Assembly (NCBI GenBank): GCA_964658305.1
Contig: OZ210885.1
Coordinates: 16,182,001-16,246,000 of the forward strand
From: Leptogorgia sarmentosa
Lineage: Eukaryota
Length of the DNA: 64,000 nucleotides
Direction: 5' to 3'
Shown here: positions 1 through 51,460 of the stretch, piece after piece
Layout: every line of letters begins with the position of its first letter
How positions within the stretch are numbered: the stretch's first letter is position 1
Program-made: the position numbers and the translations under genes
The notes under the pieces: model-generated
Seen by the model: the letters and a program-made list of their open reading frames with translations, nothing else
Told to the model about the DNA's origin: nothing
Databases searched by the model: none

Positions 1-1156
1 CCTTTGGTTCACTGGTGGTCTCCATTGCTTCGCTGAGACTGGGAAAATCTGCTTGGTACTGGAGGCAGTTGTTGGCTTCATGGCCCTTTTCCCCACAGTT
101 ATAACACCGTCGGTCGGGGCAGTCCCCTTTGGTGTGACCAGGTTTGCCACATCCTCGGCATACCCGGCCGGCTTGGCACTCTTTGGCCTCGTGGCCCGGT
201 TGATGGCAGTTTCGGCAGGTGCTAACTTGCCCTCTATATGCTGTACGCACCCTGTACTTTCCCACCAAGATGTACGAGGGGATGTTACCGTTGAGTCGTT
301 TGTACTGGGCAATTTTGATGCCCGTTTTGATTTGCAACGGTCCGTCGACGTCATCTGTGATCGATACAAGTTCTCCATGTAGGGCCATTTTCAGTCTCAG
401 TGTTTCGACCGGTGCATCTAGAGGATACCCGAAAAGTCTAACCCATGTATAGTTTACACGATTGATATTTGTGCTGGTCAGGATGAACTCTTTCCCGTGT
501 AACTGGAGTTTGGTATTGGTCGCTTCTCTTTGTCTCGTTGTGTGTGGAACACCATGTACCATAGCGCCTTGCTAAAACATTTGATGCCTTCTATTTTCTT
601 CATGCCCGTGCCAGAGTCCCGTAGACTATTATAAATCTCTGTTCAAAGGACAGCTGGTCCATCCACGGTAGCCTCAGCTGGGATTCCTTCCAGAGAAAGC
701 AGCAGAGAGCGCAGTCTCTGGATATTGGATCGTGCGCGTGCGCACCACTTGTTAAATAATGTGTCCCACAATAATACGATGCACAAAATGGCGTCCTCGC
801 TCGCTTAACGAAAATACAATTTAAAACACTGCACAGCTTGCCCGTTGATGATCCTTTCTGTTGCAAAAGGATATCATTCGAGAGCTACGCTCACGCCGGT
901 TCTGCTGATCTAATATTCTTCCTGAGACTCCCTTTCAAACGCGAGAAATTCGCCGCAGACGAGGCGACATGTAAACGATACTTCGTATCCCGTTTCGTTC
1001 GGAAATCGTTACAAACACTGGCTATTGGTGCTGGAAAGTTAGCTCATTGGACGCAGAACTTCCTTACGATGATTTTGATGTGTAAATGTCGAACCAGTAT
1101 TCAGGCCAAAAATCCAGATTTCGATGGAGCGCTACATAAGTGTGCCACGAGCGTGC
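1..1156 (-). mobile_element. 5' part of a Tx1/L1-type non-LTR retrotransposon (degenerate gag-like ORF1 with three CCHC knuckles), inserted after U2 nt 50; runs off the window edge
   Basis: Manual minus-strand translation of ~720-60 gives ...YTWVRLFGYPLDAPVETL...IPSYILVGKYRVRTAYRGQVSTCRNCHQPGHEAKECQAGRVCRGCGKPGHTKGDCPDRRCYNCG..., a Tx1/ZCCHC3-like ORF1 with a stop and frameshifts. The element starts GCACGC directly after U2 ATCTGTTCTTATC. Confidence 0.8.
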
Positions 1157-1169
1157 GATAAGAACAGAT
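1157..1169 (-). ncRNA. U2: U2 snRNA gene A, fragment 3 (nt 38-50)
   Basis: Reverse complement ATCTGTTCTTATC matches U2 nt 38-50 exactly. It is collinear with the fragments at 6512-6528 and 13639-13662 and follows the AATAAA-containing 3' end of the Utopia-like element. Confidence 0.8.
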
Positions 1170-6511: not shown

Positions 6512-6528
6512 TACTACACTTGATCTTA
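6512..6528 (-). ncRNA. U2: U2 snRNA gene A, fragment 2 (nt 22-38, includes branch-point recognition GTAGTA)
   Basis: Reverse complement TAAGATCAAGTGTAGTA matches U2 nt 22-38 exactly. Confidence 0.9.
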
Positions 6529-6681
6529 TTTTGATTTATTAAACGTTTTAGCTATATACAGAACGGAGTGCAATGTTCATAAACTAAAGTTCGGTGAAGA
6601 TCATACACATCGATAAGCGAGCGATTGATTGGCCACTGGCCCACACAACTAAAATATTAAAAGTCAAGCGCATTGTGCCCA

Positions 6682-7251
6682 TCAGCCCTCGAACTCGATC
6701 TTATTACCGGCGAGGATGGATTCTATAATTGTTTTCTTCGTGTCTTTGTCAAGTTTGTTTGAGCATTCCGGATGTGTGGAAGCGTAGAAGACGGAAAATG
6801 CGTATCGAGTGTCCTCAGGTAGGTTTTTTAGGTCGCGTACTGCATCTTCAGTTAAGTCGGGCAGGTCTGTATACTGTTTCTGGGCGTTGAGATAGGTTTG
6901 GATCATGTCGTATCTGCTGAACGGAATAGGAGAAGGCGTTGTGCCAGTTGGTAGAACCGGCTGCCAAACGTCGGAATAAGTCAAGTCGACCAACGAGCTC
7001 GACCACTGATCAGGGCTGATTTGTTTTAACAGGTTAGGAGGGAGCGGAGGCAAGGCTGGCGATGTTGGATGCCGAATCTGGAGCGTGTCGCGGTATGTTT
7101 GCCTGAGCGCTGGAGGGAGCCGGGAACATAAGGCGGTGATTTTGGCGAAGTCAGGATCAGTGGCTTTTGAACCAAGAACGTGGGCTCGTAAGTACTGACG
7201 TTCATACTGAGCATAGGTCGGGATCTCAGGCTTGTCCTTCTTCGAAGTGAC
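6682..7251 (-). pseudogene. C-terminal half of the ORF1-like protein of copy 1
   Basis: Open frame VTSKKDKPEIPTYAQYERQYLRAHVLGS...FSRYDMIQTYL...FYASTHPE aligns with 22768-23544 (KKDKPDVPTYDQYEREFLRANILGS...FYASTHPE). Confidence 0.85.
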
Positions 7252-7563
7252 GACATGTGTAAGCGATATTCGAGAATTCTTACTAATAGTCGAGAAATGT
7301 ATCCATTATTCGAGAACTTAGCTGCTGTATGCGATAGTCGAGAAAATGTAAACGATAGTTGAGATTTTCGTCTGCATTTTTGGTCAGCGGCAGTACATGG
7401 TCGGAAACCATCGGAATATACCGTTTGTTGTCATGTATGGAATATGATATTATGACATGTTTATATTTCCATGTGCTTATTTCCATGTGCTTCAGTGCTT
7501 GTCAGTGGTGCTTTCGGTCGCAATAAAATTGTCAAAAAACTGATTTAAATTAAATATTTATAT
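7252..7563 (+). repeat. Left terminal inverted repeat
   Basis: GACATGTGTAAGCGATATTCGAGAA...CTGATTTAAA is the reverse complement of 12256-12563, with few mismatches. Confidence 0.95.
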
Positions 7564-7592
7564 ATTATTTATGTCATGTGGAGTTGAGCATC

Positions 7593-9077
7593 ATGGCGGA
7601 TGATGTGAATGATGTGGAGGAGTTGCAGAATTTTCTTTGTGCTATTGATAGTTTGTTTAATCAGTGCCGGAGATCTCAATGCAATCGGGATTCGATAGGA
7701 TCGGAACATTGCAAAATCAAAATGGAAGACAACATTCTTATCGTAGTTGCTATAAAGGCAGCTGTAGATGAAAATGCAGCTGCAGATTCATCGTTAGGAG
7801 TTTTGCTCAATAATTTGATCGCTGCAATGGAGAGAGAACTCGAAAAACTAGCCGAGATTGTAGAGAATTGTCCTACCGAGGAAACAAGAAATGTTATTTC
7901 GCTTTTGCCCAGCACGGGAGGAAGACCTGCATATAATATCTCCAAGGTACAAATCGAACAGTTGAGGGAAACAGGATTAAAGTGGTGTAGTATTGCAGAA
8001 CTTTTGGGTGTGTCCGAGCGAACGCTACAAAGACGACGAATAGAATTTGGAATTGAACCAAATTTCTCAGAAATTTCAGATCATGAACTGGACAATCATA
8101 TCAGAGAAATTCTCCAATTGACACCATACAGTGGTGAGTCATACGTTAGAGGTGGCTTGAAGGGAAGACAAGTAAATGTCCAAAGACGCAGAGTTAGAGC
8201 CAGTATTCAAAGAGTCGATCCAATTGGTAGGAGCATACGAAAGAGGTATGCAATTTGTCACCGTGTCTACAATGTTCGTGGACCAAACCATTTGTGGCAT
8301 ATTGACTCGAATCATAAATTGATATCATGGAGATTTGTGATTCACGGTTGCATCGATGGCTTTAGTAGAGCAGTTATTTACCTAAAGGGTTGCACAAACA
8401 ATAGAGCTGACACTGTTCTCGGTTTGTTTGAAAATGGTGTGAGGGAGTTTGGTTTACCTTCTAGAGTGCGAGGTGACCATGGTGTTGAGAATGTTGATGT
8501 CGCAAGGTACATGGTCTACAATAGAGGCACAGATAGAGGCAGTTTTATTGCTGGTAGAAGTGTCCACAATCAGCGTATTGAGCGGTTGTGGGCAGAGGTG
8601 AACAGAGTTATGACAGCACTATATAAGGATTTGTTCCAGTTTCTAGAAAGAACTGAACAGCTTGATTCCTTTAACGAGGTACATCTATTCGCCCTTCAGT
8701 ATGTTTTCTTGCCTCGCATTAATGTATCTTTAGCTGAATTCCAGAGGCACTGGAATCATCATGGAATGAGAACAACAAATCACCAGTCACCATTAGCATT
8801 ATGGCACACTAACATGATAATGGCGGCTCCTGACGATTCAAGTGTTATTAACTGGGAATCCTATGGAACTGACTACAGCACTTCAGCACAACCAATTCAA
8901 ACAAACAACAATATTGTGATCCCAAATTCAGATATTGAACTCACTGAAGCACAGCTTCATTACCTGCAACAAATGGTAGACCCTTCACAAAATGATGGAA
9001 ATAATGGTATACAGCACTTTTTGAATACAGTGGACATTGTTGCTGGTTTCATGGGTGATGAAACAGTAGACATTTGA
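7593..9077 (+). CDS. DDE integrase/transposase (rve-like core, N-terminal HTH)
   Basis: Intact single-exon [32 protein letters not shown]. Catalytic motifs: [40 protein letters not shown]. Confidence 0.9.
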
Positions 9078-9489
9078 CTGACTTGTATTATTAAAAAGTA
9101 TAGCTGGCCAAAGATCTGGGTAATAGATTTGGTAGTCAATGTTCATACCCAAAATAACAGGGAAAAAACGCATTAAATGTAAATTGTAAACTATTTTGTC
9201 AAAACAATGTAATAACACAACAAAAAATCTATATAGTTATCCGCTAAACAATGTGAAACTGTGGTAATGTTTGTCTTGGTTCTTGGCAGTATTAACATTT
9301 ATATGTACTGTTGCATTAAAAATTGTTACATTACACAAAAATGCCAATAAATGTTTAGCCATCATGATGGTAAAATCTCATAAAAATCCTTGATAAAATC
9401 CCTGTAAAAAACAAGGGGTGTATAATCCACTGATCTGTGCAACTTAAACCATACCAAATCTGAACAAGTTATCAACTAGTAAGTACATT

Positions 9490-12248
9490 TCAAACAATGT
9501 CAAATGACCATGACTGATACCCCCTAATAATATTTAGGAATTCTTCCGAAAGAGCCAAATACGATTCGTACGTTGAAGGTAGCTCTATCAAAGGTGCACA
9601 TGTGCGGGCTATGGGCCGCCTTTCTAAACCAGTCATGGTATTGAAAGTAATGGAGATTGATTCACATGTGATGATGTCACTTCCTGTGCAAAAATGCAAG
9701 AACTTTCCCAATGTATGGCCTTCCAGGGATTTGACAAATCGCTTCAGATGGGCAAGACTTTCTCTTTCAGCATCATTGGAAGGTTCTGCTTGAAATAGCT
9801 TGATAATTTTTTTCGAAGAAGCAACTTTGCTTTTGTAGAACTCTTTGAGACCATCAAAGGTCCGGAATTCTGGATGACCTTGTAACAAATGCAATATAGG
9901 CGCCCAACAGTTGACAATGTATCTCGGTTTCTGTATCAGCTCTTGGTGCGCTAACTCATGGACAATTTCTTGTATGTTTTCTTGTGATGGTAGTTTGAAA
10001 CACTTCAAAGAAGACAGAAACTCGATGACATCTGTAGCATCTTTATCAAAGGTATCACCAAGACACTGATCTAGAACATCTTGATCTTCACATGGGGTGT
10101 ACTCTTTAAACGATGAAAGTAGAAATTCCAACGTGATGCATTCTTCCCCAAACAAGCATGATGCAATAAAAAGACAAGAAAGTTGGAGTGGGAAATAGCC
10201 ATACTTTTGGTACCCATAGACAAGGATCCGTGCAATAGCTTGCTACTCACGTTTCTGCATATCATGCCTAATGAATGGTGTTTTCTCCTTTCTTCCTACG
10301 GTTAATGATATGTAACAATTGTTCTAAAAATGGGTCAAAATATCTAATACAACACCTCTCCCCTTGCCTTTCTCCGGTTCACCACGTGCATCAATCACAA
10401 CCACATCAAGGTAACAGTTTAAAATACTTGGATCAGTAAATATTTCAGTTAGATCTTTACGAATGGTGGATCGATGGACAGTGACTGTTTTGGGAAGCAT
10501 TGGAGTGTACATTGATATTAATTCCAGATCATCTACAAAATCAAACAAAGTAAATAAATTAGTTCATTTGGTAGAACTGAATTAGAATGTAATATTTTTA
10601 GTAATTCACCAAACTTCTAAATGACAAGTAAATCATCGTCAATTGCCCATACAAATTAATAAGTTGTTTGTAGACATCAACAGATCCCAGGCCATTTTCC
10701 ACTTATTGCAGAAATGACATTGCAAGCAAGTGTTTTTATCCAATCATATTGCTCAAAATTTGTTTTAATTAGATGTGAACACTCACAGCAGACTAGCCAT
10801 TTGGTTTTGGATGAGTGAGCATATTTAAGGATATTCAAAACTTCAAGGATACTGAAATCATACCTTCATCCATGTCAGACAAAACCTGAGCCGTTTCCTG
10901 ATGTGGGCTATCAATCTGAGCAGGTTGGGTGTTACCATTGGCACTAGGGTCGTTGGAGTAGAAATTTGCTGAAAGGGGTTGAATGGTGGCTTCCACTGGC
11001 ATAGGATTGTTGATATTTGTCACAAGGGGTTGTGTATCAACATTAGCTGGAGGGTGGTCGGAGTTGACATCTGTTGAACAGGGGTTGGTGGTTGAATTCA
11101 TTGGATTAAGTCGGATGTTGACGTTAGCATGTGAGTGTTGGGAGTTGGTAGGGGTCTGGACGGTAACACTGGAAGCAGTGTTAACATTGCTTTGGTCAGT
11201 TTGGTGATCCAGGAAACACTCCTCTATTTCTTCTTCTTCTTGTACCAGGTTGGAGGGGGGATTTGATAACTCATTGGTTTGCTAAGGATAATAAATGTAT
11301 ATACACAATACCTCAATTAAAAATTCACCACAAATATTAAAACAGGATAAATGCTCAATATCTTACTTGGGCAAAATTAAATGATAGTTTTAGAAATAAT
11401 TGTAATATATTTTCTAGGGAAAATTGCATGAATGCAAGGTTGTCAATGGCAATATTCTGGCAGTATTCAGGAAGTAAATGTTTTTTTCTCAGAATATTAG
11501 TGATACTATAATAATCACAGTGCTTCTCTCTACAACATTTATTTATATAAAATACCTGTGACACAATTTCATATGATGCAAGTTCAAAGAGTTGTTGATT
11601 TGGGCGAATATAAACGGGCTTGTTTCTATAAAGTCGTTGTAGCAAGGCACCATCTATACCATGTTGGCCAGGTGCCAATGTTGGGACCACCAAACTTGAA
11701 TGAACAGAAATTAGTAACTCAATATCCACACCGGGTGGAATTTTACCGTCAAAAGCCTCGATTATCGTTCTTTCGACTTCTATCATCGACTGACCTCTTG
11801 TAAATGTGCACCCTGAAATAACGTGCCCCCTTTCATTTAGAGCAAGACGTGTTCCTTGCCGGGGTACGACTTGAGTGTCAGGACCGTTCAGTAAAACCAA
11901 ATCTTGCATAAAAGGCTTGTTATCGCTAGCGTTTGCCTTTTGTTTTCCCTCCTTGCGAGCCGAGCGCAAACGTCGTTGGCCTGAAAAATTTTGTCTAACT
12001 GAATAAGGTCTATATCTATTATTTGTCGGTTCATTTGACGATCTTGAGGTGAAGGGTGTTGAAGTAGATGGTCCACCTGAGTTTGTGCTTCTGTCTCTAC
12101 TTGTAAAAGTACGTCTCACTTCTGACTCGATGTTGTCTTGGTTCGGTCGCCCTGATATCGCATCAGACAGTTCGCCTATCCTTGAAAACAGCTGCCTTAT
12201 GACATCATTTGATTCGAGATTTTGCTGTTCATGATTCCTGTCTACCAT
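9490..12248 (-). pseudogene. Spliced HECT-domain E3 ubiquitin ligase (G2E3-like) passenger gene with two nonsense codons
   Basis: Predicted exons ~12248-11556, ~11281-10864 and ~10532-9490 with GT/AG boundaries. HECT-like motifs: EPEKGKGRGVV, ARILVYGY..YGYFP, FLHFCTGSD, RRPIARTC..LIELP..Y. In-frame TAG codons at ~10324 and ~10245 sit where Trp is expected. Confidence 0.8.
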
Positions 12249-12255
12249 ATTTCCA

Positions 12256-12563
12256 TATATAAATATTTAAATCAGTTTTTTGACAATTTTATTGCGACCG
12301 AAAGCACCACTGACAAGCACTGAAGCACATGGAAATAAGCACATGGAAATATAAACATGTCATAATATCATATTCCACACACGACAACAAACGGTATATT
12401 CCGATGGTTTCCGACCATGTACTGCTGCTGACCAAAAATACAGACGAAAATCTCAACTATCGTTTACATTTTCTCGACTATCGCATACAGCAGCTAAGTT
12501 CTCGAATAATGGATACATTTCTCGACTATTAGTAACAATTCTCGAATATCGCTTACACATGTC
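12256..12563 (-). repeat. Right terminal inverted repeat
   Basis: Reverse complement of 7252-7563. Confidence 0.95.
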
Positions 12564-12631
12564 TCAGCTATAGTATATATTTCTCATACATTGTATGCAG
12601 TTCTCGACTATTGCTTACAGTTCTCAATATA

Positions 12632-13495
12632 CTTTTGTCCAGTTTGGCTTGCCATAGGCGACGCCTCAACAGTGCCGGACAACTGCCGTTTGCTCGTATC
12701 TGGATTCACCGGAGTCGATGTAGAGGAGCTGCCCTCAGACACAGTGTCTTCATGTGTCTCAGACACTTCCATAGTTTGCGCGGGGGGAACCAGGGAGCCA
12801 GGAGGGCCGTCATCCGCGGAAGCGGTATCGTTCTCATCCGCAGCAGGAACAGAACCAACAGGATTAGTAGTCGCAGCCCCGGTAGGCGTCGACGGACGTA
12901 CAATGGTATCTCCTACAATTTGTGCAGGGGGAACACCACGGGATTTCTTGAACGGAGAGTCTTTAGATTGGTGACCGGTCTGTTCGCATCGGAAGCACTG
13001 CTGGACTTGTCCTCTGTAGAACACATTGACGGGGTAGTTGGCGATGGTCAGACGGGAAGGTATTGGCTTGCGAAGTTCCATCTTAACAGAATAAACCGAG
13101 ATTCCAATACCTTGAACAAGTTCGTGTCGGATTTTTTGCACGTTGCCGTAGTCTGAAAGCCGCGACTTTATCGCGTTTTCGGTCGTGCCATACATGACCC
13201 GGGTGAGTTTAACCCATTGCGTGTTGGGAGCGGCGACGAGTTTGACCAGCTGTCCACGGAACGTCAGCCCGGTGTGGAGCAGGGCTTCAGCCTGGCGACC
13301 ATCTCGGCAGTGCATGACAAAAGTCGATGCACCGCTTTGCATGATGTTGTCAATTTTCGTGGAGGCATCTGGAACTTGGCGGATGGAATCATCAATGATT
13401 TCTTTCAAAGTGACAGGGATAGTTGCAGCAGCTGCCATAACTTCATCAGGTAGCGTGCCCACCAGGGCTCTTGCAGCGAAAGGGACAGCAGCCAT
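12632..13495 (-). pseudogene. N-terminal half of the ORF1-like protein of copy 1 (RRM-like region plus degenerate CCHC knuckle)
   Basis: MAAVPFAARAL...QWVKLTRVMYG...IPSRLTIANYPVNVFYRGQVQQCFRCEQTGHQSKDS is Tx1/ZCCHC3-like. It is truncated by the DNA transposon. Confidence 0.85.
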
Positions 13496-13638
13496 TGGAT
13501 CAGGAACCAAGGACCACCAAACGTGAACAGCACCACGCCAATCCCCAACACCAAAGACTTCGTAAAAATCTCTTCTTCTTGAAATCTCTTCTTAAATTCT
13601 CCAAATAGCGGGACTCTTCTCACTTGATTAGAATATCG

Positions 13639-13662
13639 TTAGCCAAAAGGCCGAGAAGCGAT
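13639..13662 (-). ncRNA. U2: U2 snRNA gene A, fragment 1 (nt 1-24)
   Basis: Reverse complement ATCGCTTCTCGGCCTTTTGGCTAA matches the U2 5' end exactly. Confidence 0.95.
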
Positions 13663-13920
13663 GCCTTCTTCGCCGTTCCATGCCATCTTTAAGCGAGAAA
13701 AGCAGGTCCTCCTTCGCGCCGCCATTAGCAGCCGCGGCCGCGAAATCGCAAGCGAAACGAGCCGCAAACGTTGTGGCACGCGGTGATGATGACTCGTACA
13801 ATCAATCGTTTGTGCGCTGCTAATTAATTCGGGTGCACGCGCGAAACTTCTCGCGATGCACGCGCGAAACTTCTCGCGATGCACACGTGTTCTCCACGAA
13901 TTTCTGGCGATTTTTTGGCG
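13663..13920 (-). promoter_or_regulatory. U2 upstream promoter region, copy A
   Basis: Highly similar to 24301-24560. It has GCTTAA near -30 and lacks ~15 bp (including TTCACCT) that is present near -55 in the other copy. Confidence 0.7.
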
Positions 13921-14123
13921 GGTGCACGTGGCACTTTCTCCCATTCGCTGGCTCCGTGACCGATTCGGGAATGGCAAATGAGCGACATGCATTGAGTTGA
14001 ACGAAGCGTGTCCGGTTGCACTTCGGTTGGAGAAATGACGTGTGCATTTGAATTGGAAATGGTTGTTTAACATAAGTCTAGTATAAAATGCATGATCGGT
14101 TGGCAGCGCGTGTATGGATTGAT

Positions 14124-14149
14124 TGATTCATTCATTCATTCATTCATTC
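14124..14149. repeat. (ATTC)n microsatellite
   Basis: attcattcattcattcattcattc. Confidence 0.8.
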
Positions 14150-14376
14150 CATATGACGTGCATACAACAAGGTGTGAGTAATCCAATATTGATTGCATGG
14201 TTATGTATTAGTGTCGAATGACCGCGATGTAGTATCGAGTTACAGGTGTTCGTGAAACACATGGGCTGCATTGTGAAGAATACATGGAATTGTTGTCTCG
14301 TCAATATACTAGCATGCTCGACGACACTTATATTGGCAGTTTTGAGTATTGAAATGAGAATGATAAGATGAGGATG

Positions 14377-14539
14377 AAGGGGACGAGCGCGAACGCAGGT
14401 CCCCACTTCCAGAAATTATACGCTCGAGTTACCCACATTAGGGGTAATCGCAGGAGTCAACCCAGTCGAAGTGCAATGAAAGGGCATCATCCTGAGAGGA
14501 CCTCCTAGTTGATCAAGGTGCCTCTCGCGTCAGGTAAGT
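14377..14539 (-). ncRNA. U1: U1 snRNA gene body (nt 3 to 3' end)
   Basis: Reverse complement reads ACTTACCTG...GATCA (SL1 loop)...CATTGCACTTCG (SL2 loop)...ATAATTTCTGG (Sm site)...GGGGACCTGCGTTCGCGCTCGTCCCC (SL4). Confidence 0.95.
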
Positions 14540-14892
14540 TTATGTTGGATATAGGCAAATCCACCCCCACTTGGGAGCGTGCAATGGATTTCCCTAAATC
14601 GAGGAGGGTGCTACCGGCACGCAAACGACTAAGGGGACGATCCCTACCTCCTCATTAAATGCACCCCGAGAATATTTATTATTCTGACGCCTCGAGTAGT
14701 GCATTTAATTCTATATAAAAAACAACACATACTAGGACAGTACATGGACCGATGCTAGCCTGATACAGGCAGCAACGGGGATTTAAAAAGAGAAACGACC
14801 CTACCGAACCGATCGGGGCAGTACAACTAACTAAGGCGACCCCCCTTCACGGAGCGGCAGAGGAAGAAAAAAGGATCAAAAAACCTGAAAGA

Positions 14893-17800
14893 CTAAAAGG
14901 AGAAGACCAGCTCCTCCCCCTCGAAATGACCTACAATACCGCGAGCGAGCCAATCCCTCTCAAAAGATCGCACTTGAGCAGGGAGTTTGCACCGACGACC
15001 AAAGAGACGAAGAACAAACTTTACTTTGGCGATGGCTTTCGCCTGGCAATCCGAGGCGATTGGCCGCTTACCACAGAAACGGAAATCACAACGAGCCACG
15101 CAGATGGTATGTTTCATCACATGGAGCATGCACACGATGATTGGGGGCACGATGCGCCGTCGTTCGGACGAGAAGCCGAACAAGAGTTCCGTGACGGTAA
15201 ATGGTGCGGCAGTAGGACATATCTGCCATAAATTGTAGTGTACCCATGCCACCAAAAGGCGGGCCAGCTCACATTCGAAGAATAGATGTTCTAGAGTTTC
15301 TTCATCTGCTCGACAGAAACAGCGCATATCGATGTTCGGCATGTTAAAGCGGGTTCCCAAGCGAGAGCCTGTGTAGAGAATGCCATGCGCTATTTGCCAG
15401 TTCAGGTCGATCACAAGCCGGTCAAATGGACATAGATGAAGCTGACTCCAAGTTTGGGGCCAGTGTAGAGGTCCATACTGCAGCGTGAACTTGGCTATAC
15501 AATGTGGCTGGCTATTTAAATTGTTTTGACTTATTTGGTACACATTTTTACTTGATATGTTATCCACCAGGTGTGGAGAGGCAGACGAGGCAGCAATGCA
15601 CAAGTCATTGCCAGTAAGACCACCGTCGAGAGATTGCCACACCCGAAAGATGATACAATAGAACTCGGGCAAGGCTCTCAAACGACGTTGGGAAAAAGAA
15701 GTTAAAAAGGCCTCACGAGGCTCGCAACCAAGTGAGGCAGAAACAAAATGGGTAAAAAAGTCTTTCCATTTGCCACGATCTTCAGCGAACAAACGTTTTA
15801 CCCATTGAAGTGCAAAAGCATCTGCCTTGAGTTGGAAATCGATAACTCCAAATCCACCCTTGGATTTGGGAAGGCAGACTACTTTGCGGGCAACAAGATC
15901 CCGCTTGCCAGACCAGAAGAACTTCCAAACTGCCTTGTGTATTCTCTGAACCGCCCACTTCGGAACAGGGAAGACGTGACAAATGCCATATCTGGGACAA
16001 GGCCAAAGTGTTGATAATAGTGGCCTTGCCCTGAAAGGACAGTCTGCGTCCAGACCAGTCTGACAAACGTTTCTCCAAGTTGGAAACGGCTGGCTCGAAG
16101 GTCGGCTGACTATAGTCAGCGGCACTGAAGGTTGCACCAAGTAATGGGAGTTCTTTAACCCACTGGATACCATGAGGGGTATCGGTACGGTGCTTCCAGG
16201 AGCCCAACCACATGCTCTTAGATTTGCCGCGATTCAGACGAGCACCCGAGGCTTTCTCAAACTGAGAATACACCTCGAAGGTGGCCTTGATCGATTCATC
16301 CGTAGTAGGCGCAATCGTCGTATCGTCGGCATACCCAGAGCATTTAAACTGTTCCAGCGATTGAGGGAGAAAAACCCCAGTAATACCTGGGGCAGAGCGG
16401 ATGTTAGCTGCTAACACCTCAATCGACACAACGTACAATAGTGGAGAAAGTGGACAACCCTGCCGCACACCCGCAAAGCAGGAGGTCCAGCCATTGATGA
16501 CTACGGCCGATTCTACGTCAGAGTAAAACAACTTTACCCATCGGCAGAAATCCGGACCAAAATTCATGCTGTCCAGAGTCCGTAAGAGAAAACCCCATCG
16601 ACCCGATCAAATGCTTTTTCTTGATCCAAAAAGAGCAGAGCGAGGGGAATGTCCTCGTGCTCCGCATACTCAATTAGATCACGGATCAGAAAGAGATTCT
16701 CTGAGATGGTACGGCCTGGAACACCGCACGTTTGATCTGGCCCCACAACAGAGCCGATGACGGCTAGGAGACGACCCGAAATAGCGCGAGTAGCTATTTT
16801 GTAGTCTGCATTGAGCAGACTAATCGGCCGCCAGTTCTTTGTCTCCAAGCAGTCATTCTTTTTATAGAGGACAATGATCAAACCTCAACGCTGAGAGGTG
16901 GAAAGCTGGCCGGCCTCGTAAGCAACATTGAGGACACGAACCAGATCAGCCAAAACTTGAGGAAAAACTCCATGGGAAAGCCATCGGAACCCGGAGTCTT
17001 TCCCCTAGCCATACCCGACAGGGCAGTAAAACATTCCTCTAAAGAGAGAAGACCCTCACAACACGCATGTTCCTCCTTACTAAGGCGGCGAGACAGCTTT
17101 GACAGCATCTCATCCTGAGCAGATGTATCGCAGGGTGATGCAGTAAAGAGTTCGGTGTAATACCGCCACCAGACGTCCAAGATCTCAAAAGGGTCGTGGC
17201 GCACGGTACCGGTGTCGGGGTCTCGAATGGAGTGCATCTCTTGCTTTGCATGTCGCTTAGTGGCTAAATTGAGAAAAAAGGAGGAGGAAGTTTCCCCCTC
17301 CTCAGCCCACTGACAACGAGCACGAACTTGTGCCCCTCTCGCTTCATGCAAAGCAATGCCTCGGAGCTCTTCCTGAACCTCGCAAAGCTTAGCGAATGCA
17401 GAGGTATCCCCGGCTTCGAAAAGACGCTGCAGTCTGTGCATCTGCTTGGTCAGGAAGGATTTATGTTCCCGCCGGTCCAGCTCCTTTGACCGACTAAAAG
17501 TGCGTGTCACTTCTCTAAGGTAGAATTTCCCCTGGTCCCACCAATCCAAAATGGAGGGAAAGGCCTCAGGTGTATAATGGCCTGCCAGAAGGACCAAAAA
17601 GAAGTGACAAGGGCGCAATAGGTTTCGTCGTCCAGGAGGGAAGTATTAAACTTCCACACTCCAGGACCACTAACGATACGATCACCAAATTGGAACTTGA
17701 CCAGCAAGTATTGATGATCTGATAAAAAGGAGGGATGATATTCACATTCCCTAATATACTGTTCCAGACAAGTCGGGGCCCAGACCATATCGATGCGTGA

Positions 17801-18409
17801 GCCAAAGGTTCCGGACCCATGGGTCCAGGAATAAGCCGTCTGCGTGGGATGTAACGTACGCCACACCGGATATGTCTGGGTATGAGATAGTAGGGTCTGC
17901 AAGGCCCGGCCACTTTCTTGGGCGCGCGAAGAGGCAGCACCAGTGTAAGAAGCACGCCGAAGCCTATCCCGATCATCGTCTAGAACAGAATTAAAATCAC
18001 CACAAACAAATGTGGGCCTGGTAAGATCAATTAAACCAGGAATTGAAGCGAAAAAAGCGTTACGAGCCGGATTCTTATTTGGGGCATATAATGAGACGAA
18101 ACTTAGCTGATCTTCCCCAAAATCAACGAAGACTTGGACAAATCGTCCATCATCATCTGGAATCACTTGTTTAACCTTGTGACAGTCTTTAATAAGAATG
18201 GCCGTGCCACAACGCTTATTTGACACTGACGACGAGACAACTCGAAAGCCAGAATTAGCGAACCACTTTCTGATGGATTCGTGTGAAGGAGCATGCGTTT
18301 CTTGCAAACATGCAACATCCACCTTCATACATTTTAACCAATCCACCAGGGCGGTTCGTTTAATACGGTCGTTAAGACCATTAATATTGATGGACAACAG
18401 ACTCGCCAT
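14893..18409 (-). pseudogene. Tx1-type ORF2 (AP endonuclease, RT, zinc-binding C-terminus), several frameshifts
   Basis: APE motifs: SININGLN, ACLQETH, YAPN, CGDFN, SRID, SDH. RT motifs: GVWKFN, KNWRPISLLNADYK, LDQEKAFDRVD, GVRQGCPLSP, YADD. C-terminus: CFCRADEETLEHLFFEC. Confidence 0.95.
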
Positions 18410-19580
18410 CAGAATCTGATGTCCCAGATGTGGGCAGCTCACCAATAAGGAGCTCCTCGAGTTGATCAGCACGAAGCTGATCACTAAATGACGTGCATGT
18501 CGAAGATGCACCCACCTCACTGACATCATTGCGAAGACGAGACCGTGAGTCTTCATGGATGGCGGCCAGTGCCTCAAAGAGATCGAGGGATGACTCAGAC
18601 TGCTGTGATACATCCACTGCAGGAGGATCCTGCGAAGCAGCGTTGTCATCATCCACATCAGCCTGAGGAGGCATGGGAGCATCATCCATACGCTCCGGGG
18701 ATCCGACTGGCTCAGTAAAGTCAAGATCAGGCGCAGATTCCTGAGTGATGATCGGATCAACTACCGTATCACCACTCAAACATTTGTTCACTTCAGCCTC
18801 TGCCTCCATGGCCTCCGGAGTGGCAGTTGGACTAGAAGGGCTCGTGAACCCTGGCCACACGCTAACGTTGGTCGGAGTCGAAGGAGCAGGAGCGGACTGG
18901 CATACCCTCTTGGACACTATACCCTCTTTATCGTCACTACTCGAGGAGGAAGAGGGAAAAGGAGCATCCCTGGTGGAGTTGGCCCTAACACCCTTAGGTG
19001 CCTTGGATGATGACTTGCCAAGGGGATGTGGGCTTGCATAGGGTATGGGAAGCGCAAAATCAAAGGATTTGCGCTTCAAATGCTCCGCAGTCAGGGGTGT
19101 GACGGTGGTGGCATCCGACGGCTCGGTGGCCTTGGGAGCCTTCTTCCTCAGCTTCTCCCAAAGGTCTCTAGGGCGAGAAGAAGAGGTTGATTTAGAAGGG
19201 CCGGACGAGGCCGGCAAGAAGGTGCTCTCCTTAGCCGAAACTAATAGGGGATTAACCCCCTTAGCCTTAGGAGCATTCTCCTTAGCCGCTACAGCCGGAA
19301 CAGATGGCAGTGCTGGCTCGCTTGTCTTCTTCTTCTTTAACTTCTCCCGAAGGTCACCCGTGCGAGAAGAAGAAGAAGAGGATGACTTGTCCTTGAGCGA
19401 ACCTTTTGCCGGCTTAGTTGTACTGGTAGGTTTGGGCACTGCCGACTTACTAGCCTTTGGTGTTAACTTCTCGCAAAGGTCTCCAGTGCGAGAGGCAGAG
19501 GACGATTTAGAAAGGCCGGACGAAGCTGGCGAGTTATTACTATCCTCAGCCTCTGTAGGCGTAGATTTACCAGTACTATT
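18381..19580 (-). pseudogene. Low-complexity C-terminal part of Tx1 ORF1
   Basis: S/K/P-rich frame directly upstream of and overlapping the ORF2 start, with three SR(T/P)(G/R)DLxEKL repeats. Confidence 0.7.
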
Positions 19581-19606
19581 AAGAATACGAATTAACAAAA
19601 AAATCA

Positions 19607-19612
19607 AAGTAT
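19607..19612 (-). ncRNA. U1: U1 snRNA 5' stub (nt 1-6, ATACTT)
   Basis: ATACTT lies exactly at the element's 5' junction and completes an ACTT duplication. A GCTTAA motif ends 26 nt upstream, the same spacing as in U2 promoter A. The match is short, so confidence is moderate. Confidence 0.65.
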
Positions 19613-19876
19613 GTAAATCTCATGAACAGCGATGCTGCTTAAGCTTTGTTGGCCAACGAGCAGCTACCCAAGACTATTATAACATGAATGTGTTAGGCTG
19701 CTTACCATAATTCGTTTGTCGTCGGTCATCCGCACTGAATATGTCATTGTATACGTATCTCTTGCCAAATGCCGGTTCGCGGCGAGGATCTATCTGTAAA
19801 GTCAAGAATAATTTGTAAGAATTTTTTTGAACTGATAGTGAGTGAGAAATCTTCCCCCAATAATGAAATTGGGGGA

Positions 19877-20026
19877 AGTGGGCCATACTCGGAGGTAGTG
19901 CAATACCGAGACAACCCGTGGCCAGGGCGAAGCAAGCTTCAATCCCATGGCCGAGGTCCAAAATCAGTTTAATATATGAGTTAGGACATTGCCTAACATA
20001 TCAGATATTAAGCTGATAAAAACAGA
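19877..20026 (-). ncRNA. U2: U2 snRNA gene B, 3' body (nt 39 to end)
   Basis: Reverse complement reads TCTGTTTTTATCAGCTTAATATCTGATA...GATTTTGG (Sm site)...GCTTGCT...CTCGGTATTGCACTACCTCCGAG (SL IV). Confidence 0.92.
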
Positions 20027-22601
20027 AATTTTTTATTATGGATAAAGAAATGTTACAAGCTATGTTATATATATACGGGTTAATGACTTAGAAGTTAATG
20101 ACAATAGAATGTTATATACAAAGGTTTGAAATGACTGATTGAAACGTTCAGTAGGAAAGAAGTTGTTTGGAAACTACTACTATGGTAATATTATTATAAG
20201 TTACTATAATAATCTAAGAAGTTCTAGTGAATTAGATCTTTTTAAAAGACGTTTGATAAAGTTATTGTGGGACACCTGTAAGGTGTTGGACATAAATGTT
20301 TGTAGAGATGCGAATGGCATCTGCGCAACATAGTTTCCTAAATAGGGTTCTATATCTTAAATTAATGTCAAGTTCGTTAAGGACAGCTTCATTCTCGTTG
20401 TACCACGCACCAAGGGATCCAACGACGAAACCGAACACTTTGGCATCTTGGATGTGTTGCTGGAAGTAGTCGATCAGGTAGTCGTACTTGTTGGTTTTCC
20501 TTTGGGCAGCCATTTCCAGTGATGTATCATTGTTCTCGTAGGGGCATGTGATGTCAATGATGGTTACTTTGTTTCCTCTACGAACAACGATATCTGGACG
20601 GTTAATACCGGGAGCTCCAGGCACTATTTGATCAACTGTGACGTCGCCAGTATTGATTGCATTTAGAAGGCGATTTAGTATTCGGTCGTGTCTAGCTGTG
20701 ATGGCCGTCATGTTTGGTTTGCAGTGGCATATGATGTGGGGTAGCGTTTCGGTGTTATTTTGGCTGTGACATCGTCGACAAACTGGACTGGTATCCGACC
20801 AACGGCTTTTAACATCATTAGTTCGTAGGGTATTGGTCCTTGCGCGATGGATAAACCTCCAATCACAGAATCGAAGGCCCGTTCCGTCAAACGCCCAGTT
20901 GTTGGTGGTGGCAATTCAACATGACTGCAGGCATCTGGCGACTTTACCTTGATCTTTTAGGGATAGCAAGTCATTTGCGTGTTTGGTTTTGAGATGGCTT
21001 TGAGATGGCGGTGAAGGAATGAGGATATTTTGTGGGGTGAATCTGTGGTTGAACCATTGATTGAAACGGATATGTTCGTTGTAGCGTTATGGATGGCGAT
21101 GTTTAATGCTCTGCTGGAAATTCGGCATCTTGACCAAAGGGAGGCACTTGAGTTTTGGTGATTGGCAAGGGGGCCCTCTTGGAAACCTGAGAGGAAACCA
21201 TCTATTACTTCGCTGGTTGGGTTGTCTTTGCATTTAACACAACGTTTGACAACTGATGTAAGTTGGTCACGGGAGATACTCTTAATGAGTGGATCGTTGG
21301 CTAAGAGGATCTTGACGGTATGGACCACAGTTTGAATGTGTCTCTCATCAAAGGGATCCTGGAACCCAAGACCTCCAACCGATTTGTCAGCGAACAGGTA
21401 TGCATTTGAAACCCTCTTTGGTAGGTGACAGATAGATTTAATTGTCTCTATGAGCTTTGACCAATAATCTTTAAGAGAATCACGTGGCACAGGACATGAT
21501 CTGAGTGCGTAGGTTAAACCTGGTTGGATAAAAGTTCTGATAGCATCAAGTTTCTGCCATGGAGTTAGAAGGGAGTCACGGATTTTGGAAAGGTCTTCAA
21601 CTACTTTTTCGGTAATTGATTTCATGTCTGTAGCATCATAGATTAGACCAATGGGTACACCAAGGTAACGGTAGGATTCTTCTCTCTTAAGGCATGGGAT
21701 TTCCCCGTTTTCGACAATGAAGTGGAATTCAGAAACTCTATCAGGGTGTTTGTTGGAGCATGTTAGGCTGAGGGTAGCGCATTTATCTGGTCTGAATGAA
21801 AGGTTAAGGGTGTCAGCGGCAGAGGAAACACTATTCAGAAATTCTTGAAGGCCATTCTGTGTTCGGCTAATTAACACGAGGTCATCAGCGTAAGCCAGGA
21901 TAGATATTAGCTGGTTGTGTAGTTTAAAAGCCATCTTGGGGTTGTTTTCGGCTTTTGAAATCACTGTTCTAATTAATAGTTCGGTTGTAAGATTGAACAG
22001 GATTGGGCTGATAGGGCAACCTTGTTTAACGCCAGCGTTGGTATTGATGGGTGATGTTTCGTCTTCTCGCGATGTGCGTATAACAGTTGAGGCATTAGTG
22101 TATATGTCCTTAATTAAGTCTGTGAAGGTTGATGGGAAGCCCATATGGGATAGAGATGTATAAATGGCTTCGTGGTTTATGCTACCGAAGGCGTTTCGTA
22201 AGTCCAACCATGCAATGTAACAATCCTTATAGTTTCTTTTACAGTCCGAGATAATTGATTGACGGGTAAACGTATGTTCGTGGCATCCTTCAGCGGGTCT
22301 AGCACTCTTTTGTTGGGTGGAGAAAGTAGGTTGTGGTGGATGGCAAAGGTTGTAGCTCTCGATGCAAGGATAGCTGTGAAAAGTTTGTACAAACATGACA
22401 TTAAAGCAATAGGTCGAAAGTTGCTTGGATCATCACTGTTTCCCTTTTTGTATATGAGGATGGTCGTGGAGGTTTTCCAGACAGAAGGGATTTGTTTGTT
22501 ATTTAGACAACGATTGAAGATGAGTGATAAGACTTTACAGCTTGGATCAACTTGTCGGAGGTGGCGATATTCAACTCGGTCTTTGCCAGGTGCAGAATTA
22601 G
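20027..22601 (-). mobile_element. 5'-truncated Utopia-like RLE retrotransposon at U2 nt 37/38
   Basis: RT motifs: AWLDLRNAFGS, GVKQGCPISP, LAYADDL, YRYLG. CCHC: RRCHS...ETLPHIICHC. RLE: RHDRIL...RPDIVV...IDITCPYE...KTNKY. The 3' end is AATAAAAAA, and the element is bounded by U2 nt 22-37 and nt 39 onward. Confidence 0.92.
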
Positions 22602-22617
22602 ACTACACTTGATCTTA
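22602..22617 (-). ncRNA. U2: U2 snRNA gene B, middle fragment (nt 22-37)
   Basis: Reverse complement TAAGATCAAGTGTAGT. Confidence 0.9.
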
Positions 22618-24276
22618 ATTTGTTTAATAATCGTTTTAGCTATTTACATAAGGCGAAAGTGCAATGCCCGCAAGCCAAAGTCCAAAAGATCATATACACT
22701 GGACTAGACCAGCTAGCTGTTCGTTAATGGCTTAAAAGCCCACACATATAAAAGAAAGCGTCCAGCGCTAATTGTCCTCGTAGCTAATGGGACACATGTT
22801 CAGGATGGCCTCATAGAGACCCTCCTTTATGTCCGAGTTTACACTGCCCATGCTCTCGGGGTGCGTGGATGCATAAAAAATGTCATAGGCTATCCGCGCA
22901 TCAGATGGTATGCCATCAAGTTCTTTCTGGGCATCAGCAGGAAGGTCGGGAAGGTTTGCAAATTTGTCTTTGGCATCAACATACGTCCGGATGCGATCAT
23001 ATTGGGCAAAGGATATACCAGGGGGGGAGGTACCAGGAGGAACCACAGGATCGAGCAGCGTGGAGGTGGATAGATCCATACAGTCAGTCGGCCACTGGAG
23101 GGAGTGGAGACTGTTCAACATGTCCGAACTTGGAGTCGGAAGAGCCTTCCAAACAGGGTGACGATACAGAAGGGTTTTCTTGTATTTCGCGTGTAACTCG
23201 GGCGGAATCCGGCGTGACACCGAGGACACCCGTTCACGATCAGCAGCTGTTACATTGGACCCGAGGATATTCGCTCGCAAAAACTCACGTTCATACTGGT
23301 CATACGTGGGCACATCGGGCTTGTCTTTCTTCGCAGGAAGAGCAGGACCAGATGTGGATCGCTGACGCTTTCCAGTATCTGGATTAAGCATGGTAGACGT
23401 GGAGGAGGTATCATCTTCAGGGAGTTGCTCGGAATTGTTCCCACTGGGAAGCACAGGAGAGGCGGAGGTATCTGAGGCAGCTCCAGGCGGAGTAGGGGGT
23501 GTCAAGGGAGGGGGGTCATCGACCACCATAGCAGGACCGGCCACGGTCTCACCAATGATACGGGCTGCAGGAACTTTACTGGTCTTCTTGAACGGGCAAT
23601 CTTTCGAGATATGCCCCGTCTGTTCGCAACGAAAGCACTGTTGTACTTGGCCGCGATAAAAAACATTAACTGGATAATGCGCGATGGTAATACGAGACGG
23701 GATGGGCTTTCATACTTCCATTTTCACAGAGTAAACAGAAATTCCAATCCCGTTGACGAGTTCTCTGCGAATTTTCAAAATGTTGCCATACTCGGATAAC
23801 CGCGATTTAATTGCATTTTCGGTGGTCCCATAGACCACCCTCGTTAGTTTGATCCACTGGGTATTTGGAGCAGCGACCAACTTGACCGGATGCCCACGGA
23901 AGGTCAGCCCGGCATGAAGTAGCCCTTCAGCCTGACGACTGTCATGACAGTGCAGAACAAAGGTTGTAGCCCCAGACTGCATAACATTATCGATGTGTGT
24001 CGATGCTTCAGGAAGTTGACGACAGAAGTCTTCTATCATCTCTTTCAACGTGACAGGAGCGGTAGCTGCGTTCTCCATAACAGCAGCTGGAATCGTGCCC
24101 ACCAGGGCTCTAGCGGCGAAAGGGACTGCAGCCATTGATACCAGCGAACCAACGACCACCGACAGCAAACCAACAGGACGCCAATCCTCAGCCAAACTTC
24201 TCCAAAACTTCTTCTTTTTCTTCTTCTTCTTCTTCTCTTCAAGATACTTCGTTAATCAACAGGACTCTTCTCTCTT
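22618..24276 (-). mobile_element. ORF1-only (HAL1-like) Tx1-type retroelement, copy 2 (~1.66 kb), at U2 nt 22-24
   Basis: Flanked by U2 nt 1-24 and nt 22-37 (TAA duplicated). The 5' end GAGAAGAGTCC is shared with copy 1. It has a GAA-rich leader, a single ORF and a ~150-bp 3' UTR. Confidence 0.9.
22768..24135 (-). pseudogene. ~455-aa ORF1-like protein (RRM-like region, CCHC knuckle, disordered linker, conserved C-terminal domain), one in-frame stop
   Basis: ORFs 23710-24195 and 22768-23544 are in the same frame, separated by TGA at 23710-23712 where copy 1 has Arg. Knuckle: CFRCEQTGHISKDC. Confidence 0.88.
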
Positions 24277-24300
24277 TTAGCCAAAAGGCCGAGAAGCGAT
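24277..24300 (-). ncRNA. U2: U2 snRNA gene B, 5' fragment (nt 1-24)
   Basis: Reverse complement ATCGCTTCTCGGCCTTTTGGCTAA. Confidence 0.95.
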
Positions 24301-51455: not shown

Positions 51456-51460
51456 TATAG

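What the first reader, a model, noticed from the sequence alone, without database searches (positions are those of the whole stretch)
6529..22670. snRNA-gene-targeting Tx1-type elements all carry a U1A/U2B''-type AUUGCAC stem-loop ~40 nt from their 3' ends
Seen: on the element strand, ATTGCAC lies at 6568-6574 (3' end 6529), 14579-14585 (3' end 14540) and 22659-22665 (3' end 22618), i.e. 39-41 nt from the end in all three, although the UTRs are otherwise divergent. ORF1-only copy 1 reads GAAC-ATTGCACTCC-GTTC. Copy 2 reads GGGC-ATTGCACTTTC-GCCT, a different stem sequence that still pairs. The U1-inserted autonomous-type element reads AAATCC-ATTGCAC-GCTCCC-AAGT-GGGGGT-GGATTT, an internal-loop form. 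Established: AUUGCAC in a C-G-closed hairpin (U1 SL2, U2 SL4) or in an asymmetric internal loop (U1A mRNA PIE) is the binding site of U1A/U2B''/SNF, and PIE-bound U1A inhibits polyadenylation. Inference: these retroelement RNAs mimic an snRNA module to recruit a host snRNP protein (for 3'-end control, stability or routing to snRNA gene loci), and/or this is the shared 3' signal that lets the ORF1-only element borrow an ORF2. I know of no description of this.
Basis: partly seen in the sequence, partly recalled or inferred. Interest (0 to 1): 0.9.

Follow-up and report, generated by a model that had tools for sequence, protein, structure and literature searches.

The report
U1A-site mimic in retrotransposon tails
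Jumping genes of two related-looking groups in an animal (likely a coral) end in a conserved RNA stem-loop with the same sequence as the binding site of the host splicing protein U1A/SNF, which likely lets them recruit that protein to control their RNA's tail; other jumping genes that insert into the same splicing-RNA genes lack it.

Summary
The three ATTGCAC sites are real, 39-41 nt from the element ends. They belong to two lineages, not three. Wider data confirm a conserved RNA element. In a second animal's U1-U2 array, 13 of 13 U1(+3) Tx1 junctions carry TTGCAC within 95 nt. Five of five ORF1-only U2(+22) subfamilies carry C-AUUGCAC...G. The loop-closing C-G is invariant (10 of 10), stems vary with compensatory changes, and 1 of 94 background sites has this context. 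Five of nine U1/tRNA families have a second site, as the U1A PIE does. The general claim fails: 0 of 22 Keno-type families (two of them U1-targeting) and 0 of 14 Utopia families have it, while a tRNA-targeting relative does. It marks one likely anthozoan Tx1 clade plus an unplaced ORF1-only family, not snRNA targeting. Best reading: a host U1A/SNF site used in cis at the 3' end. Binding and function are untested. Ten paper searches found no such link. The scan earlier noted U1-targeting Tx1 elements on other DNA, but not this motif.

The parts
24277..24300 (-). U2 snRNA nt 1-24, 5' flank of ORF1-only copy 2 (TAA at nt 22-24 is duplicated at the 3' junction)
22618..24276 (-). ORF1-only Tx1-type element, copy 2 (1.66 kb). 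ORF1 runs from ~24135 to 22768 with an in-frame stop at 23710-23712: predicted tandem RRM, CCHC knuckle, linker and helical C-terminal domain. No ORF2.
22633..22680 (-). 3' hairpin of copy 2: 11-nt loop beginning AUUGCAC (22659-22665), C-G closing pair, outer helix shared with copy 1
22602..22617 (-). U2 nt 22-37, between copy 2 and a Utopia-like element
20027..22601 (-). 5'-truncated Utopia-like element (RT plus restriction-like endonuclease motifs) at U2 +38; its 3' end lacks TTGCAC (internal control)
19873..20026 (-). rest of U2 (from nt ~39), with SL4 AUUGCAC at 19898-19904
14540..19583 (-). 5'-truncated Tx1-type element: ORF1 remnant and frameshifted APE-RT-zinc ORF2 ending at 14893; 3' junction at U1 +3
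14552..14596 (-). 3' stem with AUUGCAC (14579-14585) 3' of a C-G pair and capped by a 6-bp hairpin; PIE-like internal-loop form predicted 2.2 kcal/mol above the ensemble
14378..14539 (-). U1 snRNA nt 3-164, with SL2 AUUGCAC at 14471-14477
13639..13662 (-). U2 snRNA nt 1-24, 5' flank of ORF1-only copy 1
6529..13638 (-). ORF1-only element, copy 1, split by a ~5.4 kb inverted-repeat transposon (about 7252-12658); ORF1 ends at 6682
6545..6590 (-). 3' hairpin of copy 1: 10-nt loop AUUGCACUCC (motif 6568-6574), C-G closing pair, AATAAA 27 nt downstream
6512..6528 (-). U2 nt 22-38, followed by a second Utopia-like region (6511 to ~1170) whose 3' end lacks TTGCAC

Best explanation
The 3' ends of one Tx1 retrotransposon clade, and of an ORF1-only family inserted in U2, carry a conserved AUUGCAC loop on a C-G-closed stem that likely binds the host U1A/SNF protein and likely controls how the element RNA's 3' end is made. 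Shown: the motif, its position 19-44 nt from the 3' junction, the invariant closing pair, compensatory stem changes, a second site in 5 of 9 U1/tRNA families, its retention in short non-autonomous families, and its restriction to this clade and family. Inferred: (1) SNF binds (about 0.7). (2) Full-length copies are transcribed from the host snRNA promoter and read through into the target gene. (3) SNF sitting 21-34 nt upstream of the terminal A-rich hexamer restrains poly(A) addition, PIE-fashion. The RNA would then keep a short, target-matching 3' end that can pair with the nicked target to start reverse transcription, as reported for R1Bm.
For: Second host (animal contigs inside MAG G001): 13 of 13 U1 +3 junctions have TTGCAC within 95 nt, 11 of 13 with exact ATTGCAC at the last site. 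ORF1-only family: 5 of 5 subfamilies seen (two window copies plus three contig loose ends) have C-AUUGCAC, a 3-5 nt variable linker and G, on five different stems. Over 11 families, C(-1) and UUGCAC are invariant and A1 is 10 of 11, while the commonest base at stem positions -2 to -9 is found in only 4-8 of 11. The closing pair is C-G in 10 of 10. Pairs -2 to -4 are 30 of 30 paired with three pair types each; 1 of 10,000 arm swaps reached this, but the arms were chosen for pairing, so the control leans in favour. RNAalifold on a plain MAFFT alignment finds the same stem with both-side changes at 4 of 5 pairs. Context test: 14 of 15 last sites pass versus 1 of 94 background ATTGCAC. U1A contacts exactly AUUGCAC and the closing C-G, in a hairpin or an internal loop, in various loop sizes (PMC2203988, passages). 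Non-vertebrate metazoans use one SNF for U1 SL2 and U2 SL4 and prefer a C-G closing pair (PMC5992148, passages). The motif is unchanged across ORF2s separated by more than 0.5 substitutions per site, whereas ORF2-read tails are family-specific in zebrafish LINEs (PMC4176376, abstract). A polyadenylation-signal-like hexamer lies 21-34 nt downstream in 10 of 10. U1 elements carry U1 nt 1-12 to 1-19 at their 5' ends. R1Bm needs downstream target sequence (PMC7265360, passage).
Against: No binding or expression data. PAP inhibition needs two U1A molecules (PMC6884704, passage), but the three window elements and 4 of 9 U1/tRNA families have one site only. Rfam's U1A PIE model is not matched, and the loops are 9x1, 7x0/8x1 or hairpins, not 7x1. 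That invertebrate SNF inhibits poly(A) polymerase is not shown in anything I read, and I recall the inhibitory segment as a vertebrate U1A feature. One family reads UUUGCAC at A1, a position where a change to G costs U1A 5 kcal/mol, and one family has lost the 3' arm (C57). The hexamer evidence is weak because A-rich ends match one of 12 variants easily. R7Ag and SART1 need a long poly(A) for accurate priming. The presence of the motif is one evolutionary origin (at most two), so the Fisher p of 5e-9 is not an independent test.
Confidence: 0.45

Rival explanations
1. The element's own protein (the ORF2 tail-binding region, or the tandem RRMs of ORF1p) reads the loop, as in stringent LINEs. The identity to the U1A site is a relic of a captured snRNA loop or a convergence.
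For: ORF2p binds the cognate 3' stem-loop, and specifically its loop, in zebrafish LINEs (PMC4176376, abstract). ORF1p has a predicted tandem RRM fold. The motif follows the ORF2 clade rather than the target, and non-autonomous families keep it.
Against: The exact U1A footprint (7 nt plus closing C-G, free 3' linker, hairpin and internal-loop forms interchanged) is kept across divergent ORF1s and ORF2s and in a family whose ORF1 is not placed in the clade. U1A/SNF is not among the listed best fold matches of the ORF1 RRMs, which are generic tandem RRMs at 10-15% identity.
Confidence: 0.25
2. SNF binds, but as a scaffold: it stabilises, retains or traffics an snRNA-promoter transcript that lacks a normal poly(A) tail, or hands it to ORF2p. 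Routing to snRNA gene loci is the first reader's version.
For: Same binding-site evidence. Single sites suffice for binding but not for PAP inhibition. Elements carry U1 or U2 5' leaders.
Against: For routing: Keno-type, Utopia and two U1 +45 families hit the same genes without the motif, and a tRNA-upstream family has two sites.
Confidence: 0.17
3. The site is a brake. Free SNF rises when U1/U2 genes are disrupted, binds the element RNA and blocks its polyadenylation, so that the element limits its load on the snRNA array.
For: PIE senses free U1A in this way. Arrays in both hosts keep many intact units beside inserted ones.
Against: Short non-autonomous families keep both sites, although they would gain by losing a pure brake. 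The tRNA-targeting family keeps it too.
Confidence: 0.09
4. Neutral relic or chance.
For: The heptamer is not enriched in the window. The window hairpins are weak. One or two origins only.
Against: Invariant motif in variable, covarying stems across 11 families, two hosts and three more subfamilies.
Confidence: 0.04

Closest known systems
U1 snRNA stem-loop II / U2 stem-loop IV bound by U1A, U2B'' or SNF (PMC2203988, PMC5992148; passages read)
   Same: AUUGCAC at the 5' side of a 10-13 nt loop, C-G closing pair, variable 3' loop residues.
   Different: Lies in retrotransposon 3' UTRs on unrelated stems, also as internal loops; binding not shown.
U1A polyadenylation inhibition element (PIE, Rfam RF00460; PMC9977717 and PMC6884704, passages read)
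   Same: U1A-type sites at a near-fixed distance upstream of the 3' end; internal-loop form with one opposing nucleotide in several families; two sites in 5 of 9 U1/tRNA families.
   Different: No Rfam match. The two sites sit on separate arms of a junction, not as two 7x1 loops. The window elements have one site. It is in a mobile element of an invertebrate, not in the U1A mRNA.
3' tail stem-loops of stringent LINEs (ZfL2-1/ZfL2-2; PMC4176376, abstract and outline read)
   Same: Conserved stem-loop near the 3' end, shared with non-autonomous partners.
   Different: Those loops are family-specific and read by ORF2p; this loop is constant across families and equals a host-protein site.
Keno (Tx1 clade, U2 +38) and Utopia (PMC4640811, PMC4494074; passages read)
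   Same: Site-specific insertion into spliceosomal snRNA genes; Keno has the same APE-RT layout.
   Different: Other sites (U1 +3, U2 +22, tRNA-Gln upstream), a separate ORF2 clade, and Keno-type and Utopia ends lack the motif. The 2015 paper lists only Keno, Utopia, Dada-U1 and Dada-U6 as snRNA-targeting; the SINEU figure legend also lists a U5 target.
HAL1 (half-L1; PMC5753468, passage read)
   Same: Non-autonomous element that encodes only ORF1p.
   Different: Tx1-type ORF1 with an extra helical domain, fixed U2 site, no long poly(A), partner unknown.
Alu RNA binding SRP9/14 (recalled, from no call)
   Same: A retroelement RNA that keeps a host RNP protein's binding site for mobilisation.
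   Different: Alu derives wholesale from 7SL; here only a 9-nt footprint is shared with snRNA, at the 3' end of a protein-coding element.

Membership tests
U1A/SNF binding site | AUUGCAC heptamer | tested here: met
   Exact in 10 of 11 families, UUUGCAC in one; exact in three more subfamilies
U1A/SNF binding site | C-G pair directly 5' of the heptamer | tested here: met
   C in 11 of 11, C-G in 10 of 10 with an intact 3' arm; C57 lost the arm
U1A/SNF binding site | heptamer single-stranded in a hairpin or internal loop | tested here: inconclusive
   Predicted opening cost 0.0-2.4 kcal/mol on the last 65 nt (up to 4.9 on 130 nt) versus 0.1 for host U1 SL2; the window U1 element's best fold pairs part of it
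U1A/SNF binding site | specific binding by the protein | not testable with these tools
   needs EMSA, ITC or CLIP
PIE (RF00460) | two U1A sites in one structure | tested here: inconclusive
   Second site in 5 of 9 U1/tRNA families; none in the three window elements
PIE (RF00460) | match to the Rfam model / paired 7x1 internal loops | tested here: not met
   No hit at E<=0.1 in the window or E<=5 in L186, L190, L195; loop sizes differ
PIE (RF00460) | conserved distance to the poly(A) signal | tested here: inconclusive
   A hexamer variant 21-34 nt downstream in 10 of 10, but A-rich ends match easily; list of variants recalled
PIE (RF00460) | inhibition of poly(A) polymerase | not testable with these tools
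   needs a 3'-processing assay
Keno | APE-type endonuclease with RT, Tx1 layout | tested here: met
   U1 element: Exo_endo_phos, RVT_1, zf-RVT
Keno | 3' junction at U2 +38 | tested here: not met
   Junctions at U1 +3 and U2 +22
Keno | groups with U2 +38 Tx1 elements | tested here: not met
   Separate clade, SH-aLRT 100. No Repbase Keno was in the tree; 'Keno-type' is my label from site and domains
HAL1-type ORF1-only element | encodes ORF1 only | tested here: met
   Copy 2 is 1.66 kb between U2 fragments; related contigs of 1.76-1.97 kb end at the same site
HAL1-type ORF1-only element | derived from an identified autonomous partner sharing its tail | tested here: inconclusive
   ORF1 clade unplaced; no partner found

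The most novel reading that the evidence does not exclude
A Tx1 lineage has evolved a PIE-like mimic of the spliceosomal U1A/SNF site and depends on this host snRNP protein to shape its RNA 3' end for target-primed insertion. An unrelated ORF1-only family has converged on, or captured, the same signal to enter that pathway. Because free SNF rises when U1/U2 genes are disrupted, the same site could couple element activity to the state of the array it lives in.
Probability: 0.3. Interest if true: 0.9.

Novelty: new variant of a known kind. Interest (0 to 1): 0.74.

Why it matters
How LINEs that sit inside snRNA genes, behind a promoter that does not normally make polyadenylated RNA, form a usable 3' end is open. 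A short, invariant, host-protein-type site with natural stem variants gives a direct test with standard U1A assays. If SNF binding is needed, it would be a case of a LINE using a spliceosomal protein as a cofactor. It would also show U1A-type 3'-end control outside vertebrates, and give a 3' signature for an undescribed clade of U1-, U2- and tRNA-targeting elements.

Tried and rejected
No whole genome was held. A short U2 junction pattern in viral contigs gave 35 chance phage matches. ORF1-alignment scans of metagenome and viral contigs found no relative. Two longer patterns found nothing in viral contigs. No RNA holder was listed among sequencing runs, so expression and RNA ends were not examined. 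I first read ATACTT at 19612 as the 5' U1 half; rejected, because normal repeat units diverge at 19584 and the true U1 upstream sequence differs. The other ATTGCAC sites in the window (4810, 10230, 56061) are not at element ends. A pattern hit in G001:C31 is chance, and the dispersed LINE there lacks the motif. miR-92-family seed identity (AUUGCAC dominates the listing): rejected, since the motif is in sense and in a loop; that cnidarians lack miR-92 is recalled. RBPMS/couch-potato GCAC binding was seen in a search listing only and does not explain AUU plus the closing pair. The ORF1 C-terminal domain folded well (pLDDT 91) but had no Foldseek match at E<=0.001 and a best Z of 4.5; this does not show a new fold. 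The ESM Atlas gave no answer. The RT-only tree placed the window piece weakly (85/90). One row of alignment A6 was a wrong region, and that alignment was not used for counts. Supplements of PMC4494074 could not be read and may list Tx1 3' ends; PMC2080603 was not held.


Full report
Setting. The first 25 kb of the window is a U2-U1-U2 cluster next to a 5S array, filled with site-specific non-LTR elements, all on the minus strand. The order is: U2 nt 1-24, ORF1-only copy 2, U2 nt 22-37, a Utopia-like element, the rest of U2, spacer, a 5'-truncated APE-RT Tx1-type element, U1 nt 3-164, spacer, U2 nt 1-24, ORF1-only copy 1 (split by a ~5.4 kb inverted-repeat transposon), U2 nt 22-38, a second Utopia-like region, U2 nt 38-50 and another Tx1-type ORF1. 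The only named relative among 46 ORF2 hits is from the octocoral Paramuricea clavata (52% identity), so the host is likely an anthozoan (inference). Contig depth suggests that the U1/U2 unit and the U1 element are both multicopy (not a copy number).

Observation. The three motifs and their distances (39, 39, 41 nt) are as reported. The heptamer is not enriched in the window (8 versus 10.8 expected). Copies 1 and 2 are one lineage with alignable tails. Their hairpins are weak by energy, and the U1 element's best fold pairs part of the motif. From the window alone the case would be two events.

More members of the ORF1-only family. A protein search gave 33 relatives, many on contigs of 1.6-1.9 kb. 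Laying public contigs on copy 2 showed elements of 1.76-1.97 kb ending at the same U2 site, and three further tails read from 26-30 nt loose ends. With the two window copies, 5 of 5 subfamilies seen have C-AUUGCAC, then UCC, UUUC, CUCC, UUUAC or UUC, then G, on five different stems; one of them has only two pairs before a mismatch. Only subfamilies similar enough to be laid could be seen, and the loose-end table was cut.

A second host. Three of the latter lie in animal contigs inside MAG G001, which hold a U1-U2-5S array. I fetched eight such contigs, one in part, and a stretch of a ninth. All 13 U1 +3 junctions found have TTGCAC within 95 nt: 11 have exact ATTGCAC at the last site, one TTTGCAC, and one ATCGCAC with an intact upstream site. 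They include four autonomous families (ORF2 1175-1202 aa) and short elements of 1.0-1.8 kb. Two further copies have lost their 3' ends and four run off their contigs; these were not counted. A close relative inserted just upstream of a tRNA-Gln gene has an 11-bp stem with the same loop, 35 nt from its end.

Structure. Over 11 families (80% clustering of the last 100 nt), C(-1) and UUGCAC are invariant and A1 is 10 of 11, while neighbouring stem positions vary. The closing pair is C-G in 10 of 10; C57, which lost its 3' arm, was left out. The next three pairs are formed in 30 of 30 cells with three pair types each. The arm-swap control (1 of 10,000) leans in favour because arms were chosen for pairing. 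RNAalifold on a sequence-only alignment of nine tails finds the same stem with both-side changes at 4 of 5 pairs. A fixed context rule passes 14 of 15 last sites and 1 of 94 background ATTGCAC sites. Hairpin forms (10-12 nt loops) and internal-loop forms alternate between families. Five of nine U1/tRNA families have a second, upstream site, but its covariation is not significant (12 of 15 pairs, 987 of 10,000 swaps). Opening the site is predicted to cost 0.0-2.4 kcal/mol on the last 65 nt.

Limits of the pattern. None of 129 U2 matches in the 118 loci has ATTGCAC in the preceding 110 nt; some of these are intact U2 genes. After typing by domains, TTGCAC is absent from the last 150 nt of 24 Keno-type ends (22 clusters) and 20 Utopia ends (14 clusters). 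The Keno-type set includes two elements in G002 that insert in U1 at about +45 and contain no TTGCAC at all. The scan pattern favoured AATAAA-type ends. A full-length ORF2 tree of 35 rows joins P0046 (78% identical to the window ORF2 piece) with all motif-bearing G001 families at SH-aLRT 100 and excludes all 15 motif-less rows (quick search, no bootstrap). The 11 database proteins in it have unknown tails. The motif is thus a trait of one clade, plus the ORF1-only family that the ORF1 tree cannot place. It is not a trait of snRNA targeting.

Mechanism. The conserved footprint is what U1A contacts: the seven bases and the closing C-G, in hairpin or internal loop (PMC2203988, passages). SNF of non-vertebrate animals prefers the C-G closure (PMC5992148, passages). 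I put SNF binding at about 0.7. Short non-autonomous families keep the sites, which points to a positive role in cis. The position, 21-34 nt before an A-rich hexamer that lies 0-7 nt from the junction, and the two-site families recall the PIE (PMC9977717, PMC6884704, passages). Cleavage at the usual distance from such a hexamer (recalled as 10-30 nt) would fall inside the downstream U1 or U2 sequence. Restraining poly(A) addition would then leave a target-matching end, as R1Bm needs (PMC7265360, passage). This step is inference. Against it: single sites in the window elements, no evidence that invertebrate SNF inhibits poly(A) polymerase, and the poly(A) need of other site-specific LINEs. The main rival is recognition by the element's own protein (PMC4176376, abstract); ORF1p has predicted tandem RRMs of generic type.

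What is in print. Ten searches of the held library gave no paper linking U1A/SNF or AUUGCAC to a retroelement tail. For most papers I saw listings only, and one search listed 25 of 44. The SINEU paper has no 'U1A' or 'stem' in its text (part 1 of 5, section 15 and passages read; supplements unavailable). The Utopia supplements contain ATTGCAC once, in flanking DNA. Subscription journals and Repbase Reports were not searched, so the families may be catalogued there. Earlier notes of this scan describe U1-targeting Tx1 elements in other genomes; the word AUUGCAC is in none.

Verdict. A real, conserved and apparently undescribed 3' RNA element of one Tx1 clade and one ORF1-only family. It is built like a U1A/SNF site, it does not meet the PIE membership test, and its function is untested.

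Noticed in passing
window 22771-23330 and 6685-7240; P0001-P0017: The ORF1-only proteins end in a ~180 aa helical domain that folds confidently (pLDDT 91) and has no clear PDB match.
   Followed up: partly
window 6545-6553 and 22633-22641: The conserved 3' arm UAGCUAAAA of the ORF1-only tail could also pair (9 bp, one G-U) with U2 nt 15-23, which a transcript from the U2 promoter would carry at its 5' end.
   Followed up: no
L183-L190 tails, 130-165 nt before the U1 junction; window ~14640-14670: A second conserved hairpin with a T-loop/B-box-like GGTTCGATCC loop and compensatory changes lies upstream of the motif; it is degenerate in the window element.
   Followed up: partly
L191, L192 (G002:C984, C1279): Two full-length Tx1 elements insert in U1 at about +45 and nest among U2-targeting Keno-type elements, a target switch from U2 to U1.
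   Followed up: partly
G001, G002, G003: Three prokaryote MAGs contain animal contigs with U1/U2/5S/tRNA genes and dozens of LINE ORF2s.
   Followed up: partly
window 14519 and 14528: Contig loose ends suggest further insertions in this host's U1: an A-tailed 3' junction near +23 and a 5'-type junction near +14.
   Followed up: no
window 1-1169: U2 nt 38-50 is followed by another Tx1-type ORF1 that runs off the window, a third element type in the same U2 gene.
   Followed up: no
L054; L074, L093, L128, L131: An ORF1-only element at U2 +38, and insertions ending at U2 +19 to +24 in other animals; none has TTGCAC near its end.
   Followed up: partly
L183:2728-2919: The G001 host's U2 SL4 reads AUAGCAC, so position 3 of the loop tolerates change, the same position altered in one element copy.
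   Followed up: no
P0027/P0056 and P0031/P0048: ORF1-only relatives and ORF2 relatives report identical longest-contig lengths (707212; 52348), hinting that the two families also co-occur elsewhere.
   Followed up: no
window 7252-12658: Inverted-repeat transposon with an rva_4 integrase and a HECT-like fragment, inserted in ORF1 of copy 1.
   Followed up: no
window 41789-45451 and 49256-52579: Two tyrosine-recombinase (DIRS/Ngaro-like) retroelements interrupt the 5S rRNA array.
   Followed up: no
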